Shown piece by piece: positions 45,873-64,000 of a DNA stretch of 64,000 bases. The notes beneath the pieces are model-generated. The model did not search any database. It worked only from the letters and a program-made list of their open reading frames with translations, and had not been told where the DNA came from. A program made the position numbers and the translations under genes. Within the stretch, counting starts at the first letter, position 1. Each line of letters opens with the position of its first letter. The stretch comes from a virus (lineage: Duplodnaviria > Heunggongvirae > Uroviricota > Caudoviricetes), in IMG/VR virus record IMGVR_UViG_3300048573_000051, positions 15,996 to 79,995 of that record. One strand, given 5' to 3'.

Positions 45873-46094
45873 TCATGAACCCATCCCTTCAGATGCAAGT
45901 GGTTTGTACATTGTGTTACGAGTTTCAAAACTACCGTCAAAGAACTTCTGTAGAACTGTAGAAGTGCGAACATTACTGCACTTACCAAGCACAGGATGAT
46001 TGATAACAAAGAGCAAACTTGCAACTTCACTATTTTCGTTCCACATCCAGAACTCAGGTTGACCCATGTAATATGCTACTGGTTTTTCATTCAT
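45873..46094 (-). CDS. hypothetical protein
   Basis: 73-aa ORF. Confidence 0.3.
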   Translation of the reverse strand: MNEKPVAYYMGQPEFWMWNENSEVASLLFVINHPVLGKCSNVRTSTVLQKFFDGSFETRNTMYKPLASEGMGS

Positions 46095-46097
46095 AAT

Positions 46098-46361
46098 TTA
46101 CTCCTTAGACATTTGGTTTGTAATGTACGCTTCAACTTTAGCATCATCGACAGCTTCTTGTAAAAGCTGATCAGCTACTGAGTATATCGCATCTTCAATC
46201 TCTGTAGACCACTCGTTACTCATTAAATCTGTGATATCAACTTCAGGATGTTCATACAAGTATACCTTAAGTGTCTCCCAATCTATGTCACGATCTGAAT
46301 CTAACGTAAAGTTTACCACAACTGTTGTACCTGTGTAACCAATCTTTGTTTGTATCTGCAT
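46098..46361 (-). CDS. hypothetical acidic early protein (first gene of the minus-strand early operon)
   Basis: 87-aa, very acidic ORF directly adjacent to the divergent promoter region. Confidence 0.35.
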   Translation of the reverse strand: MQIQTKIGYTGTTVVVNFTLDSDRDIDWETLKVYLYEHPEVDITDLMSNEWSTEIEDAIYSVADQLLQEAVDDAKVEAYITNQMSKE

Positions 46362-46540
46362 ATATCCTTTATGTTGTAACTTAAGTTAATAACTTCAGTA
46401 TATAACTGAAGGAAGATTCTGAAGTTGAGTTCCTTGTCGAGTTCCCTGCCGTACCCTCCGTCCCTCGTCCCGTTTTGGATTGTAGCTTAACTTCAATTCT
46501 TGTCAAGTACTTTGTGTAAAATTTATTTGTGCAAAAAGTA

Positions 46541-46568
46541 GTTGCAAAGCTAAATTGTTGTGCTATGA
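46541..46568 (+). promoter_or_regulatory. early promoter TTGCAA-16-TGcTATGAT
   Basis: -35 TTGCAA at 46541, extended -10 TGCTATGAT ending at 46568; followed by the conserved GGCTTCAAC leader motif. Confidence 0.5.
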
Positions 46569-46603
46569 TCATGGCTTCAACTTAACAACCGAAAGGAACT
46601 TAC

Positions 46604-52804: not shown

Positions 52805-53032
52805 ATGATTAATGAACACGATGTTAAAGACTGGCAGATGCTAACTACACCTTTGAAACTGGAGAAGTTAAAAGAAGGTGCATTCTTTAGTGTTCCGGGT
52901 AGTGAAAAGGTATTTAAATTAATTGCAGTAGCAAATGATATTGCTTTCGCTGAAACTGCAGAGGTTTTTAATGCTTTTGCACTCCCTCGGTTTATGGAAG
53001 TATTCGAATGGAGCAAAAATGCAAAGTCGTAA
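52805..53032 (+). CDS. hypothetical protein
   Basis: 75-aa ORF. Confidence 0.3.
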   Translation: MINEHDVKDWQMLTTPLKLEKLKEGAFFSVPGSEKVFKLIAVANDIAFAETAEVFNAFALPRFMEVFEWSKNAKS

Positions 53033-53336
53033 AGCAGTAAGTTTTAAAAAGCTCATTGAAGCTGTAGCAGAGTCCTGTAAGTACCATAAGTATGAAGTTG
53101 AAGATGTACTTGTGCATCTAAGTAAAGTACTACAAAAGATTCTTGTTGAAGAAAAATCTGTACGTCTAACAGGTCTAGGTAAAATTAACATGAAAAAGTT
53201 AAAGACCCGATCTACAAAAGACAAAGACCTGTGGTATGATACGTTCAGGTTGTCAGTACAACAAGACACCTACATGAAAGAATACCTAAAGGAGAATTAT
53301 GTTGAAGCAGTGGAACAAGTCGATGCATCCAAATGA
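53010..53336 (+). CDS. hypothetical basic protein, possibly HU/IHF-like DNA-binding
   Basis: Start chosen at the ATG at 53010 (MQSRKAVSFKKLIEAV...); KSVRLTGLGKINMKK weakly resembles the HU arm region. Confidence 0.25.
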   Translation, partial: GAKMQSRKAVSFKKLIEAVAESCKYHKYEVEDVLVHLSKVLQKILVEEKSVRLTGLGKINMKKLKTRSTKDKDLWYDTFRLSVQQDTYMKEYLKENYVEAVEQVDASK

Positions 53337-58051: not shown

Positions 58052-58318
58052 ATGTCTTCTTCTAAATTTCTCGCTTCTTTGATTGACCAGTCCAATGGTA
58101 AAATGATCACCGTAAGCTTTGTAAAGAAAGACGGTTCAACTCGTGTTCTCAATGGTCGCCTTGGTGTTAAAAAGTACATTAAAGGTTCAACCCTTAACAA
58201 AACCTCCAATGCATACATTACAGTGTATGATGTGCAAAATAAAGGATATCGCAGCGTAAGTCGTGATACAATTGTTGCTGTACGTTGCAACGGCGTTGAA
58301 GCTGTAGCTGTACAATAA
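58052..58318 (+). CDS. hypothetical protein
   Basis: 88-aa ORF with a GAAAGGAAAT RBS. Confidence 0.3.
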   Translation: MSSSKFLASLIDQSNGKMITVSFVKKDGSTRVLNGRLGVKKYIKGSTLNKTSNAYITVYDVQNKGYRSVSRDTIVAVRCNGVEAVAVQ

Positions 58319-61994: not shown

Positions 61995-62004
61995 AAATCC
62001 ATGT

Positions 62005-62047
62005 ACCCATTACGGTTTCAAAAAGCCGTGATGGGTTATTTTTATTT
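62005..62047 (+). terminator. strong rho-independent terminator ending the + strand early/middle region
   Basis: ACCCATTACGG ... CCGTGATGGGT 11-bp stem followed by TATTTTTATTT. Confidence 0.65.
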
Positions 62048-62143
62048 GAAAAAGCCGTTTGCCTAAATTTTTTGAAAAGCCGCTTACCTATTTGCGAAAT
62101 GAAGACGGCTAAATGTAATAAGGGTGGCGAATATCCGTCAATC

Positions 62144-62215
62144 CTTATATAAGCATATAAGCATATAAGCATATAAGCATATAAGCATATAAGCATATAA
62201 GCATATAAGCATATA
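62144..62215. repeat. 9 tandem copies of the octamer GCATATAA (AT-rich unwinding-element-like)
   Basis: Exact 8-bp periodicity over 72 bp. Confidence 0.9.
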
Positions 62216-62283
62216 AGCATATTCAACTATCACGCAAACCTTACAAGAATCTTACAGTGTAGCGTAAAAACAACACGGCAAAG

Positions 62284-62412
62284 TTATCCACAGGTTATCA
62301 ACAGGTTATACATTATCCACAGGTGGGCAAGTATCATGCCTGAGTTATCCACAGGTTATCAGTCTTATATAAGAGTCAAATTGTGGATAAGTAGCACTAC
62401 TGGTGTGGATAA
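62284..62412. promoter_or_regulatory. cluster of six consensus DnaA boxes (4x TTATCCACA forward, 2x TGTGGATAA reverse) plus degenerate boxes
   Basis: TTATCCACA at 62284, 62313, 62345; TTATCAACA at 62295; TGTGGATAA at 62382 and 62404; the 12-mer GTTATCCACAGG occurs 3 times. Confidence 0.7.
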
Positions 62413-62935
62413 CTATTTTGCATGGGGTAGTAGCTTGGACGATGAAAACGGCTCAAAACGCGTTTAAACGCTTGGCATGATTTTTGATTGGCATGAATTT
62501 TGCTACGTGTGCGCGTGCGCGTTATTTATAAGATAGTAAAATGAACACTAAATTCTACTTAGGGTTTATCCTATAAAAATAATTTGAGCATGGCACAAAA
62601 ACCGGGTTTTATGTCATACAATAGAGCCATGCCAAGCAATAACGCAAGGCAACAAACGAAAGCCCGAAAATGTTTAAACTTGAAAATGTAATCGCAGTTG
62701 TTCTTTTTGCACCACTTACCGCCTATACGGTTGTTCTTTTTTGCGTGCAGTTTAAGATCATCTAAGGAAATCAACGTGAAAAACGATGCAATTCTGATCA
62801 CAATCAACGTCATTCTTTGGGTCATAATCTGCCCACTTGTCGCCCATTTGTTCTAAATTGTCAGTCTATAAGCCCGTTAAATGTCGGGCTTATAGGCGGG
62901 TAATTTCACCCGGTCTTCCACAATGGATTTTTATC

Positions 62936-63172
62936 ATGCAAAATACCCTATTCACCTCGACTAAATTTGTCACACTGCAACAACTGGAGAACAACCCGCC
63001 GAAAGTGGGCCAGTGGGTTTTGATCGATGGCGCTACCCGTGGGCAATATCTGGGCAGAACCCGTGCAGGGGTTGTTGTGATGCGCTATCAAAATGGGAAA
63101 TTCGGTAGCAAAGCCGATACTGAATCTAATCATTATCTGAGGCAGTTTGCCAAAGTTAACGGCGCAAAATAA
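62936..63172 (+). CDS. hypothetical protein (about 50% GC, compositionally distinct)
   Basis: Start chosen at the ATG at 62936 (MQNTLFTSTK...), inside track ORF 62837..63172; codon usage differs from the phage body. Confidence 0.35.
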   Translation: MQNTLFTSTKFVTLQQLENNPPKVGQWVLIDGATRGQYLGRTRAGVVVMRYQNGKFGSKADTESNHYLRQFAKVNGAK

Positions 63173-63199
63173 ATTAACGATTAACCCGAGATTATCATT

Positions 63200-63412
63200 A
63201 TGTCAAAATTTAAATCAAACCCTCGAATCATCGTCACAGTGTCAGATAATGGCGTTTCTTGTAAGGGCGTTTATATTGACTCGAAAGAAAGCACATATTC
63301 ATTTAATCGGACATTTACTGAAGAAAATCAAGCGTTAGATTATCTCAATAATATGCGAGAGAATAACGCTGAATTTTCGATTCAAGTAAACCGCATTAAC
63401 TGGAAGGCATAA
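63200..63412 (+). CDS. hypothetical protein
   Basis: 70-aa ORF. Confidence 0.3.
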   Translation: MSKFKSNPRIIVTVSDNGVSCKGVYIDSKESTYSFNRTFTEENQALDYLNNMRENNAEFSIQVNRINWKA

Positions 63413-63416
63413 CATC

Positions 63417-63770
63417 ATGTCGGCATTCATTTTGTCAGATAAGCATTTTTCAGTAATCGCGTATTATATCGGGAATCTGACCGATATTGACCCGCAAATT
63501 ATCGCCGATAAATTGAAAGCAATTAACATTGAATCCGTGAATTATCGGTATAAAGAAAAGACACCGAAAAGAAAATGCAAGTTAATGCACACGGGTGATA
63601 ATTACTCTACCGCTGACATTATCCGGCTAATACGATGCTGGTCATATCAAAGTTGTGAGAATGGATTATCTCTTGATTATCAAACGATGGATGTTTTCTT
63701 ATTGTCGTTTTTTGAAACGGACGATATTCTAGATTCCCGCTTGCACTCTGACAAATGGTCCATTGATTAA
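63417..63770 (+). CDS. hypothetical protein
   Basis: 117-aa ORF. Confidence 0.3.
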   Translation: MSAFILSDKHFSVIAYYIGNLTDIDPQIIADKLKAINIESVNYRYKEKTPKRKCKLMHTGDNYSTADIIRLIRCWSYQSCENGLSLDYQTMDVFLLSFFETDDILDSRLHSDKWSID

Positions 63771-64000
63771 GTAGTGTTCAAATAAGCTAACGCTTATATA
63801 AGCTTGCACTTATATAATACGCACGTTCAAATAAGCTAACGCTTATATAAGCTTGCACTTATATAATACGCACGTTCAAATAAGCTAACGCTTATATAAG
63901 CTTGCACTTATATAATACGCACGTTCAAATAAGCTAACGCTTATATAAGCTTGCACTTATATAATACGCACGTTCAAATAAGCTAACGCTTATATAAGCT
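63771..64000. repeat. 49-bp tandem direct repeats (at least 4.7 copies, truncated by the window end), each containing two short palindromes
   Basis: Unit CACGTTCAAATAAGCTAACGCTTATATAAGCTTGCACTTATATAATACG with palindromes ATAAGC-taac-GCTTAT and ATAAG-cttgc-ACTTAT; period 49. Confidence 0.9.

What the first reader, a model, noticed from the sequence alone, without database searches (positions are those of the whole stretch)
63771..64000. 49-bp palindrome-bearing tandem iterons running off the window end (plasmid-like replicon or centromere?)
At least 4.7 perfect copies of a 49-bp unit, each with two short inverted repeats (ATAAGC-n4-GCTTAT and ATAAG-n5-ACTTAT), resemble Rep-protein iterons or a ParB/ParR centromere array. 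They lie about 1.3 kb from the DnaA-box cluster, separated by three small genes of different composition. DnaA boxes plus an AT-rich element plus iterons is the architecture of theta-type plasmid origins (F oriS, P1 oriR, pSC101). This raises the possibility that the element is a phage-plasmid, or that a plasmid-type replicon/partition cassette was captured. The array is truncated by the window, so its length and any downstream rep or par gene cannot be seen.
Basis: partly seen in the sequence, partly recalled or inferred. Interest (0 to 1): 0.6.

Follow-up and report, generated by a model that had tools for sequence, protein, structure and literature searches.

The report
Phased palindrome array in a lytic phage
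The 49-bp repeats are real, but they sit in a lytic freshwater phage with no plasmid replication or partition genes, and look like a recently amplified cluster of binding sites for an unknown DNA-binding protein.

Summary
Observation confirmed: 63776-64000 holds 4.6 perfect copies of a 49-bp unit, and the array breaks every assembly of this phage.

Each unit is three 16/16/17-bp subunits built on the palindrome GCTTATATAAGC. The same core forms the 8-bp array at 62147-62222 and a single site in the middle of the DnaA-box cluster.

I recovered the far side of the array from another assembly of the same phage. It ends 22 bp before a 256-aa DUF7227 gene. Next come ClpP-like, PhoH-like and terminase genes, and the map closes at about 80 kb. 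No Rep, ParA/ParB or integrase gene exists anywhere. The element is a DC31-like virulent Limnohabitans-type phage with its own PolA and primase-helicase.

At least eight relatives with the same upstream gene lack the array, so it is lineage-specific.

Arrays of RCTTATATAAGY at a strict 16-bp phase recur beside the DnaA-box region of DC31-like phages. They also occur in phage contigs that share no detectable homology in the flanks I hold.

Best reading: an amplified, cooperative protein-loading platform on double-stranded DNA. Binder and function are unknown. The plasmid, phage-plasmid and centromere readings are not supported.

The parts
63776..64000 (.). Left part of the 49-bp tandem array: 4.6 perfect copies, truncated by the window and contig end. 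The right end is seen in L031 1-190.
   Evidence: TRF; sequence. L022 shows 5.6 copies. The far side has 3.6 perfect copies by TRF, running into a terminal 33-bp copy.
63792..63803 (.). Perfect 12-bp palindrome GCTTATATAAGC (site b of each unit). Also at 63841, 63890, 63939 and 63988.
   Evidence: motif scan; family D5.
63808..63819 (.). Site c, ACTTATATAATA (left half perfect), centred 16 bp after site b. Repeated every 49 bp.
   Evidence: spacings 16, 33 = 16+17.
63776..63787 (.). Site a, GTTCAAATAAGC (right half perfect), centred 17 bp after the previous site c and 16 bp before site b. Repeated every 49 bp.
   Evidence: family D3: 16/33 spacing.
62147..62222 (.). Proximal array (ATATAAGC) x 9.5, perfect. 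It shares the half-site TATAAGC and starts with a near-complete site, CCTTATATAAGC, at 62143.
   Evidence: TRF.
62363..62374 (.). Single conserved site TCTTATATAAGA at the centre of the DnaA-box cluster, between inverted DnaA boxes.
   Evidence: Conserved in 8 of 9 aligned relatives.
62284..62412 (.). DnaA-box cluster: five perfect TTATCCACA boxes plus one TTATCAACA, in both orientations.
   Evidence: Window 62295-62469 is 88.7% identical at nucleotide level to Limnohabitans phage DC31. Alignment.
62489..62504 (+). Conserved sigma-54-like motif TGGCATGAATTTTGCT (GG-N10-GC). It is the only strict match in the window.
   Evidence: Conserved in relatives.
62327..62342 (-). Second sigma-54-like motif on the minus strand (AGGCATGATACTTGCC; CTGGCATGATACTTGCT in DC31 and L008). 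It points towards the 8-bp array.
62016..62090 (.). Three copies of AAAAAGCCGnTTGCCTA-like repeats after the terminator of the upstream operon. This is the conserved left edge of the non-coding control region.
   Evidence: D9, D15. Relatives.
62936..63172 (+). 78-aa conserved small gene between the two arrays.
63200..63412 (+). 70-aa conserved small gene between the two arrays.
63417..63770 (+). 117-aa gene directly upstream of the array. All-helical, no known fold relative, not Rep-like.
53019..53336 (+). Phage-encoded HU/IHF-family DNA-binding protein (105 aa). A candidate architectural partner or binder, untested.

Best explanation
The array is a recent, lineage-specific tandem amplification of a phage cis-element. 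That element is a cluster of 12-bp palindromic sites (consensus RCTTATATAAGY) held at a fixed 16-bp phase.

Each 49-bp unit carries one perfect site and two half-perfect sites (16+16+17 bp). The visible part of the array therefore offers about 14 sites, and the full array offers more.

I infer that the sites act on double-stranded DNA. They would form a high-capacity platform for cooperative binding of a sequence-specific, probably dimeric, protein that has not been identified. It could be phage- or host-encoded.

The same site occupies the centre of the conserved DnaA-box and promoter control region 1.4 kb upstream. In this phage and its relatives it also forms arrays beside that region. The 49-bp array is therefore a second, distal site cluster belonging to the same control system.

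Its most likely effects are two. It may gate transcription running from the small-gene operon into the DUF7227 gene, whose start codon lies 22 bp beyond the array. It may also pair with the proximal cluster by looping, to modulate the DnaA-box origin-like or promoter region.

Shown: the anatomy, the motif sharing, the phasing, the phage-restricted distribution, and the absence of rep and par genes. Inferred: protein binding and cooperativity. Speculative: which process is controlled. It is not a plasmid replicon or a partition site.
For: Anatomy and motif
- Perfect 49-bp x 4.6 array, with a 16/16/17 substructure and a perfect palindrome.
- TATAAGC occurs 29 times in the window against 11.3 +/- 3.0 expected. 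Twenty-one of the 29 lie in 62148-64000.
- CTTATATAAG occurs only at 62144, at 62364 (the DnaA-cluster centre) and in the array.

Strict phasing
- Of 96 neighbouring site pairs in 27 loci, 84 are exactly 16 bp apart. The rest are at 32, 48, 33 (16+17) or 24 bp.
- The core is conserved while the 6-bp spacers differ between phages: GCGTTGA, GCATATTCA, GCGTTTA, GGAGAC, GCGGTGG.

Distribution
- Arrays flank the DnaA cluster in DC31, L002, L004, L014, L017, L026, L050, L063 and L088.
- DC31 and L088 have a second 3-site cluster about 3 kb away.
- In the complete DC31 genome, 9 of 10 sites lie in one 5.5-kb segment.
- Arrays of at least 5 sites also occur in phage contigs with no detectable protein homology to this phage in the flanks I hold, at GC 38-59%.
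- None appear among the 120 bacterial genome loci returned.

Lineage specificity
- At least eight relatives with the 117-aa gene lack the array.
- L042 has the same flanking genes, with a hairpin and a different palindrome in its place.

Growth by duplication
- The last copy is a 33-bp variant. It is followed by ATTCAAACAAAG, a degenerate copy of the unit start, then the gene's ATG.

Double-stranded DNA rather than RNA or single-stranded DNA
- Three units fold no better than shuffles (z = -1.4). Rfam gives only spurious sub-threshold miRNA hits.
Against: - No binding protein is identified. No gene is shared by all array-bearing phage groups within the flanks available.
- Perfect copy identity and absence from close relatives fit a neutral, slippage-driven expansion equally well.
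- The proximal 8-bp array contains only direct half-sites, so a simple 'dimer on a palindrome' model does not cover everything.
- Loci L049-L089 were found with a pattern that already required one 16-bp spacing. Part of the phasing statistic is therefore selected. The DC31-like loci L001-L026 were not selected that way and show the same spacing.
- True copy number is unknown, because all contigs break in the array.
Confidence: 0.55

Rival explanations
1. Neutral minisatellite. A pre-existing pair of sites in the intergenic spacer was amplified by replication slippage or unequal recombination, and the array has no function of its own.
For: - Copies are 100% identical, so the expansion is very recent.
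- The array is missing in at least eight relatives with the same upstream gene.
- The locus family is a general hot spot for lineage-specific arrays with unrelated units. Examples are 25-bp x 6.1 in L016, 20-bp CAGTCAGAAA repeats in DC31, L003 and L008, and an 11-bp DnaA-box array x 9 in L012.
- The boundary copy is degenerate.
Against: - The amplified unit preserves the 16-bp phase and the core of a motif that recurs in arrays across phage contigs with no detectable homology to each other.
- The array was seen in at least 7 contigs from several samples without decay.
Confidence: 0.2
2. Packaging- or injection-related element near a physical genome end. It would be a terminase small-subunit recognition array, or a counterpart of the phage T5 injection-stop region, where DnaA boxes, direct repeats and palindromes fill a long untranslated region.
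For: - T5-like phages carry paired DnaA boxes (including TTATCAACA) together with many direct repeats and palindromes. The region is non-coding and better conserved than its flanking ORFs (Davison, bioRxiv 10.1101/866236).
- In GC-rich contigs L049 and L083 the same site arrays lie about 0.5 kb upstream of the large terminase gene.
- Several ~95-kb contigs start within 400 bp of such arrays.
- Phages with the nearest terminases package with short direct terminal repeats: PseuGes_254 has 628 bp (PMC11512268).
Against: - In this phage the array is 6.5 kb from the DUF5681 and terminase genes.
- Contig breaks are explained by the repeats themselves. L023 is bounded by two different arrays, and L049 breaks in an unrelated repeat.
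- A relative without long arrays closes as a circle with the junction elsewhere.
- Termini cannot be mapped from assemblies.
Confidence: 0.12
3. Plasmid-type theta replicon or partition centromere, making the element a phage-plasmid. Rep or ParB-like proteins would bind the repeats for autonomous replication or segregation.
For: - Architectural resemblance only. There are two repeat sets flanking small genes next to DnaA boxes, as in P1 incC-repA-incA. There are also ~45-bp tandem units with internal palindromes, as in F sopC. Both comparisons rest on my own knowledge of those systems, set.
Against: - No Rep, ParA/ParB, TubZ or integrase is encoded in the ~80-kb genome.
- The genes between the arrays are 78, 70 and 117 aa. 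The 117-aa protein has no Rep or winged-helix fold.
- Phasing is 16 bp, not about 22 bp.
- There is no similarity to any plasmid.
- The phage carries its own PolA, primase-helicase, ligases and RNR.
- DC31 is lytic, with clear plaques.
Confidence: 0.04
4. RNA-level element. The array would be transcribed within the operon and act as a structured or protein-sponging RNA.
For: - It lies between co-directional genes with no terminator.
- Neighbouring half-sites can pair as small hairpins.
Against: - Three units fold no better than shuffled sequence (z = -1.4).
- The related 8-bp array cannot form hairpins.
- Conservation across phages is in the palindromic core, not in compensatory stems.
- There is no Rfam family above threshold.
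Confidence: 0.04

Closest known systems
Plasmid iteron origins with DnaA boxes (P1 oriR incC/incA, F oriS, pSC101)
   Same: Tandem direct repeats lie close to a DnaA-box cluster. Two repeat sets bracket a short coding segment. Repeat sets could in principle pair ('handcuff').
   Different: There is no Rep initiator gene. Sites are palindromic and phased at 16 bp (1.5 turns), not about 21-23 bp. There is no sequence match to plasmids. The host element is a virulent phage with its own replisome. Arrays vary in period (8, 16, 48, 49 bp) and in position among close relatives.
F plasmid sopC and other ParB/ParR centromere arrays
   Same: Perfect tandem units of about 45 bp, each carrying an inverted repeat. 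They are suited to loading many copies of one protein.
   Different: There is no partition ATPase or centromere-binding gene. A lytic phage has no need for partition. Each unit holds three phased sites, not one.
Phage lambda ori iterons (four dyad-symmetric O-protein sites)
   Same: Dyad-symmetric sites repeated in tandem in a phage genome. Cooperative loading of a dimeric protein is the natural model.
   Different: Lambda's iterons lie inside the initiator gene O, next to an AT-rich region. Here the sites are intergenic, far more numerous, and not linked to any recognisable initiator.
Phage T5 untranslated Repeat Region 3 / injection stop signal
   Same: A virulent siphovirus-type phage with a long non-coding region. 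The region contains closely paired DnaA boxes (including the TTATCAACA variant), runs of direct repeats and palindromes. It is better conserved than the flanking small ORFs.
   Different: T5's region lies in a 10-kb terminal repeat, and its role is itself only hypothesised. There is no sequence similarity. The termini of this phage are unknown. The RCTTATATAAGY motif and the 16-bp phase are not T5 features.
Tandem operator arrays of ribbon-helix-helix repressors (MetJ metboxes, omega heptads, ParR iterons)
   Same: Short, strictly phased repeats (7-20 bp) are bound side by side by dimers with dimer-dimer contacts. An 8-bp lattice (MetJ) parallels the 8-bp and 16-bp periods seen here.
   Different: No such protein is identified in this phage. 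The site sequence is unrelated.

Membership tests
Plasmid theta-type iteron replicon (P1/F/pSC101 type) | A Rep initiator gene adjacent to or between the iteron sets | tested here: not met
Plasmid theta-type iteron replicon (P1/F/pSC101 type) | Direct-repeat iterons phased at about two helical turns (about 21-23 bp) | tested here: not met
   Site centres are 16, 16 and 17 bp apart. 84 of 96 neighbouring pairs in related arrays are at exactly 16 bp.
Plasmid theta-type iteron replicon (P1/F/pSC101 type) | DnaA boxes and an AT-rich unwinding element next to the iterons | tested here: inconclusive
   A DnaA-box cluster exists, but it lies 1364 bp from the 49-bp array. Only the 8-bp array is adjacent to it.
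Plasmid theta-type iteron replicon (P1/F/pSC101 type) | Autonomous replication of the cloned region | not testable with these tools
   This needs cloning of 62.0-64.2 kb plus the array.
Plasmid theta-type iteron replicon (P1/F/pSC101 type) | Sequence relationship to known plasmid iterons or incompatibility groups | tested here: not met
   No megablast or blastn match in 72,556 PLSDB plasmids.
ParABS / SopABC-type partition locus | Partition NTPase and centromere-binding protein genes next to the repeats | tested here: not met
   None appear in the Pfam listings over the whole ~80-kb genome.
ParABS / SopABC-type partition locus | Tandem units each holding an inverted repeat | tested here: met
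Phage-plasmid | Temperate or plasmid lifestyle genes (rep, par, repressor, integrase or telomerase) | tested here: not met
   None found. The cultured relative DC31 gives clear plaques (PMC12195039).
Lambda-type origin iterons | Iterons embedded in or beside the initiator gene | tested here: not met
   The array is intergenic, between a 117-aa gene of unknown fold and a DUF7227 gene.
T5-like DnaA-box / repeat untranslated region | Long non-coding region with paired DnaA boxes, direct repeats and palindromes, more conserved than the flanking ORFs | tested here: met
   62000-62670 fits this. The core is 88.7% identical at nucleotide level to DC31, while the flanking 140-aa protein is 68% identical.
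T5-like DnaA-box / repeat untranslated region | Location inside a long terminal repeat, with two-step injection | not testable with these tools
   Physical termini cannot be read from metagenome assemblies.
CRISPR array | Identical repeats separated by unique spacers | tested here: not met
   Units are head-to-tail and fully identical, with no spacers.
RCTTATATAAGY arrays at 16-bp phase in aquatic phages (defined here) | Core CTTATATAAG (one mismatch or fewer) repeated at 16-bp centre spacing in non-coding phage DNA | tested here: met
   Sites b and c meet it directly. Site a keeps only the right half.

The most novel reading that the evidence does not exclude
RCTTATATAAGY arrays at a strict 16-bp phase are an undescribed cis-element shared by aquatic phage lineages with no detectable homology to each other. 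They would be loading platforms for one conserved factor, most simply a host protein of freshwater Betaproteobacteria. Phages would recruit it to non-coding hubs that combine DnaA boxes, sigma-54-like promoters and strong early promoters. The 49-bp array would then be an amplified dose of this phage-host interface. It might control origin firing or the early-to-middle transcription switch.
Probability: 0.25. Interest if true: 0.65.

Novelty: new variant of a known kind. Interest (0 to 1): 0.42.

Why it matters
Limnohabitans can make up about an eighth of freshwater bacterioplankton, and nothing is known about how its phages replicate or time their genes. This array points to a compact non-coding control hub. 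The hub combines a DnaA-box cluster, conserved at nucleotide level between phages whose proteins have diverged, with phased palindrome arrays and sigma-54-like motifs.

The same site at the same 16-bp phase appears in phage contigs with no detectable homology to each other. A single unknown DNA-binding factor may therefore be a common handle on several phage groups. DC31 and its host are in culture, so this is directly testable.

There is also a practical point. Arrays like this one break assemblies of these phages at a predictable place. That can mimic genome ends or suggest plasmid-like features.

Tried and rejected
- **Exact 49-mer and 31-mer searches.** Neither IMG/VR nor the JGI contig collection returned a match. 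The source contig was reached through exact-protein look-ups instead.
- **Walking across the array via the neighbour's downstream gene.** I used the GP88/DUF7227 gene that follows the 117-aa gene in L002. It turned out to be a different gene from the one in this phage. The search did show an 82-kb relative whose contig breaks in its own 16-bp array.
- **Rfam scan of 61.5-64 kb.** Only sub-threshold eukaryotic miRNA and snoRNA hits, which I dismissed as low-complexity artefacts.
- **Sigma-70 promoter and terminator scan.** Nothing lies in the array, and counts do not exceed shuffles.
- **Single-strand folding.** Not better than shuffles.
- **BLAST of the array against plasmids and phages.** No match.
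- **A bacterial counterpart of the arrays.** The 120 loci it returned hold only scattered clusters of 2-3 sites in diverse taxa, which look like chance.
- **A gene shared by all array-bearing phage groups.** Within the available flanks I found only a small two-transmembrane protein and terminases.
- **Rep-like nature of the 117-aa protein.** Rejected by structure prediction and two fold searches. Sequence searches of the three small proteins against the PDB gave nothing.
- **Literature search for the motif.** Only unrelated primer sequences.
- **BLAST of the ~95-kb group's control region against cultured phages.** No match.
- **GC skew.** The cumulative curve has no inflection at 62.3 kb. It turns at about 20 kb and 46 kb, where transcription direction switches. 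Skew therefore neither supports nor excludes an origin at the DnaA cluster.

Full report
**1. The observation**

The window ends in a perfect tandem array. Tandem Repeats Finder gives 63776-64000, period 49, 4.6 copies, 100% matches, and the raw sequence agrees. The array begins 5 bp after the stop codon of a 117-aa gene (63417-63770).

The unit GTTCAAATAAGCTAACGCTTATATAAGCTTGCACTTATATAATACGCAC is itself composite. The repeat finder reports an internal 16/33-bp family (D3). A motif scan places a perfect 12-bp palindrome, GCTTATATAAGC, in every unit. Read this way, each unit has three sites:
- GTTCAAATAAGC (right half intact)
- GCTTATATAAGC (perfect)
- ACTTATATAATA (left half intact)

Their centres lie 16, 16 and 17 bp apart.

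The stated 1.3 kb distance to the DnaA boxes is correct. The cluster spans 62284-62412 and holds five of the window's six perfect TTATCCACA boxes. The claim that the intervening genes differ in composition is not supported. GC there is 0.36-0.45, within the window's 0.355-0.459 range.

**2. What the element is**

The window is most of an ~80-kb virulent phage. It encodes a family A DNA polymerase, a Toprim-DnaB primase-helicase, DNA and RNA ligases, ribonucleotide reductase, thymidylate synthase, dCMP deaminase and several AP2-HNH endonucleases. It also has a tailed-phage structural module.

Its large terminase is 93% identical to that of Limnohabitans phage DC31. It is 46-50% identical to those of Curvibacter phage P26059A and of ~95-kb Pseudomonas phages. 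DC31 is a 76.2-kb long-tailed phage that forms clear plaques on Limnohabitans (PMC12195039).

Pfam hits listed for every called gene across the genome show no Rep initiator, ParA/ParB, integrase or repressor.

**3. What lies beyond the window**

Seven independent contigs carry the identical 117-aa protein, and none crosses the array. The best one ends after 5.6 copies. A short Logan contig runs exactly from the 8-bp array to the 49-bp array.

I walked round the genome from the window's first gene and reached a contig of the same phage that starts inside the array. TRF reads its first 176 bp as 3.6 perfect copies. That run leads into a terminal 33-bp copy lacking the middle 16-bp subunit, so the array occupies L031 1-190. 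Next comes ATTCAAACAAAGTCATCAA and the ATG of a 256-aa DUF7227 protein.

The order after that is:
- a small membrane ORF and about 650 bp of non-coding DNA
- on the other strand, ClpP-like, AP2-HNH and PhoH-like genes
- a DUF5681 protein, an endonuclease, the large terminase and the portal
- the genes at the start of the window

The map closes at about 80.06 kb. This matches the 79,995-bp longest contig on record. The array is the only gap.

**4. The array belongs to a motif family tied to the DnaA-box region**

The half-site TATAAGC occurs 29 times in the window against 11.3 expected, and 21 of those lie in the last 1.9 kb. The 10-bp palindrome CTTATATAAG occurs in only three places (D5):
- at the start of the perfect (ATATAAGC) x 9.5 array at 62147-62222
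- at 62364, in the exact middle of the DnaA-box cluster
- in each 49-bp unit

The cluster region, window 62295-62469, is 88.7% identical in nucleotides to DC31. The neighbouring 140-aa protein is only 68% identical.

Nine relatives were aligned. They conserve the DnaA boxes, the central palindrome (8 of 9), a GC-rich hairpin and two sigma-54-like motifs.

Next to the cluster, relatives carry arrays of the same site at a 16-bp period:
- L002: 9.5 copies, with a 48-bp higher-order period
- L014: 7.8 copies
- L026 and L063: at least 7 copies, with the contig breaking there
- DC31: 3.4 copies
- also L004, L017, L050 and L088

DC31 and L088 have a second 3-site cluster about 3 kb away, downstream of their DUF7227-type gene. 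In the complete DC31 genome, 9 of 10 sites fall in one 5.5-kb segment running from the DnaA cluster to the region upstream of the terminase genes. The window phage shows the same confinement.

**5. The array is lineage-specific and grew by duplication**

At least eight relatives have the 117-aa gene but no array after it. L042 has both flanking genes. In place of the array it has a hairpin and a different palindrome, GGATAATATTATCC.

The truncated last copy, and the degenerate unit start that merges into the 5' leader of the downstream gene, show tandem duplication in place.

The whole non-coding region is a hot spot for such expansions in this clade, and the units are unrelated between lineages:
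- 25 bp x 6.1 at the end of an 80-kb contig (L016)
- 20-bp CAGTCAGAAA repeats
- an 11-bp DnaA-box array x 9 (L012)

**6. The phase is strict and the motif crosses phage lineages**

Among 96 neighbouring site pairs in 27 loci, 84 are exactly 16 bp apart. The rest are at 32, 48, 33 (16+17) or 24 bp. The core is nearly invariant: C 105/125, TTATATAA at least 117/125, G 116/125. The 6-bp spacers differ freely.

A pattern scan found arrays of at least 5 sites in phage contigs with no detectable protein similarity to this phage in the flanks I hold:
- GC-rich contigs (53-59% GC), where the arrays lie about 0.5 kb upstream of the large terminase
- a ~95-kb group, where they sit beside a strong sigma-70-type promoter and other repeats

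The 120 loci it returned hold only scattered clusters of 2-3 sites.

Part of the phasing statistic is selected, because the scan pattern required one 16-bp spacing. The DC31-like loci were collected by protein similarity and show the same phase. I found no description of the motif in the searchable literature.

**7. How it most likely works**

A conserved core, free spacers, a fixed 1.5-turn phase and restriction to non-coding DNA are the signature of side-by-side cooperative binding of a sequence-specific protein to duplex DNA. An RNA or single-strand role is unlikely. Three units fold no better than shuffles, the related 8-bp array cannot form hairpins, and Rfam gives nothing credible.

I therefore read the 49-bp array as an amplified, distal cluster of the same sites that mark the DnaA-box and promoter hub. 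It probably does one or both of two things. It may gate transcription into the DUF7227 gene 22 bp downstream. It may pair with the proximal cluster to modulate that hub. Both are inferences.

The binder is unknown. The phage encodes an HU/IHF-family protein. That protein is seen only in the DC31-like clade among the loci I hold. The spread of the motif across unrelated lineages makes a host factor at least as likely.

Whether the hub is a replication origin is open. Three readings are possible:
- DnaA boxes followed by a promoter, a GC hairpin and AT-rich DNA would suit a host-DnaA-assisted, transcription-primed origin.
- One relative (L009) keeps the repeats and the sigma-54-like promoter but has lost the DnaA boxes.
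- Phage T5 shows that paired DnaA boxes and repeat arrays occur in a virulent phage where they are thought to have nothing to do with replication.

**8. Comparison with known systems**

The resemblance to P1/F iteron origins and to F sopC is architectural only. The defining features fail: there is no Rep or Par gene, the phase is 16 bp rather than about 22 bp, and there is no plasmid similarity.

The closest described analogue of the wider region is the T5 untranslated DnaA-box and repeat region. The closest mechanistic analogues for the array itself are lambda's dyad-symmetric iterons and the tightly phased operator arrays of ribbon-helix-helix repressors. Membership in any of these is not established.

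**9. Verdict**

The feature is real and non-random. It is ordinary in kind, being a protein-binding repeat array in a phage control region. It is new in its particulars: the motif, the strict 16-bp phase, the 49-bp higher-order unit and the distribution across lineages. The plasmid, phage-plasmid and centromere idea should be dropped. Interest is moderate. It would rise if a single host factor proves to bind these arrays in unrelated phages.

Noticed in passing
window 62489-62504 (+) and 62327-62342 (-); also L001, L006, L008, L009, L080, L085: Two divergent sigma-54-type promoter motifs (TGGCAY-N5-TTGCT, GG-N10-GC) bracket DnaA boxes R4-R6 and the central palindrome. They are conserved across DC31-like phages. 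One relative keeps the plus-strand motif although it has lost the DnaA boxes. Similar motifs lie about 50 bp from the site arrays in two ~95-kb phage contigs. Within the window alone the match count is not above chance, so the evidence is conservation.
   Followed up: partly
window 62295-62469 versus Limnohabitans phage DC31 (PQ492658 20176-20351): The DnaA-box cluster of a virulent phage is 88.7% identical at nucleotide level between phages whose flanking proteins are 50-70% identical. It is the only megablast hit of the 3-kb query in 50,697 phage records. It is unannotated in the DC31 record.
   Followed up: partly
window 62147-62222: A perfect 8-bp microsatellite, (ATATAAGC) x 9.5, lies directly upstream of the DnaA boxes. 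Relatives have 16-bp-period arrays of the full site at the same place.
   Followed up: yes
window 62016-62090 and 62505-62522: Two conserved flanking elements of the control region. The first is three AAAAAGCCGnTTGCCTA-like repeats after the upstream terminator. The second is an alternating GC hairpin (GTGCGCGTGCGCG) followed by T-rich sequence, just downstream of the sigma-54-like motif.
   Followed up: no
L024-L026, L012 (relatives); window 62653-62672; L031 181-205: Many small genes in this clade are preceded by a conserved leader, such as TTGAAAACGAAAGTTCACAC-ATG or AAACAAAG-N9-ATG, instead of an obvious Shine-Dalgarno sequence. The start of the 49-bp unit (TTCAAATAAGC) looks like a mutated copy of this leader.
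   Followed up: no
L016 11461-11612; L012 10634-10730; L001 4824-4926: The same non-coding locus carries unrelated lineage-specific arrays in other relatives. Examples are a perfect 25-bp x 6.1 array that ends an 80-kb contig, an 11-bp DnaA-box array x 9, and 20-bp CAGTCAGAAA repeats. The locus is a general hot spot for tandem expansion and for assembly breaks.
   Followed up: partly
window 62855-62906: A 22-bp-arm inverted repeat (82% complementary) after the tiny membrane ORF contains TATAAGC half-sites in inverted orientation (TATAAGCCCG-N8-CGGGCTTATA). It may be a terminator or another site. It is not conserved in L002.
   Followed up: no
window 53019-53336 (+): The phage encodes an HU/IHF-family DNA-binding protein that scores above the Pfam thresholds. 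It is conserved in the DC31-like clade. A weak GapR-like 72-aa protein and a WYL_2 protein (58052-58318) are also present.
   Followed up: partly
L002 10350-10440 and L042 3900-3996 (relatives): Where the window has the array, relatives have a hairpin plus the palindrome GGATAATATTATCC, which resembles a Fur-box core without its central base. The gene downstream differs between relatives (GP88 type versus DUF7227 type), so this junction is also a mosaic boundary.
   Followed up: no
window ~46000-46600: The cumulative GC-skew minimum and the divergent switch of transcription lie here, with short repeats at 46377-46471. The skew shows no inflection at the DnaA-box cluster.
   Followed up: no
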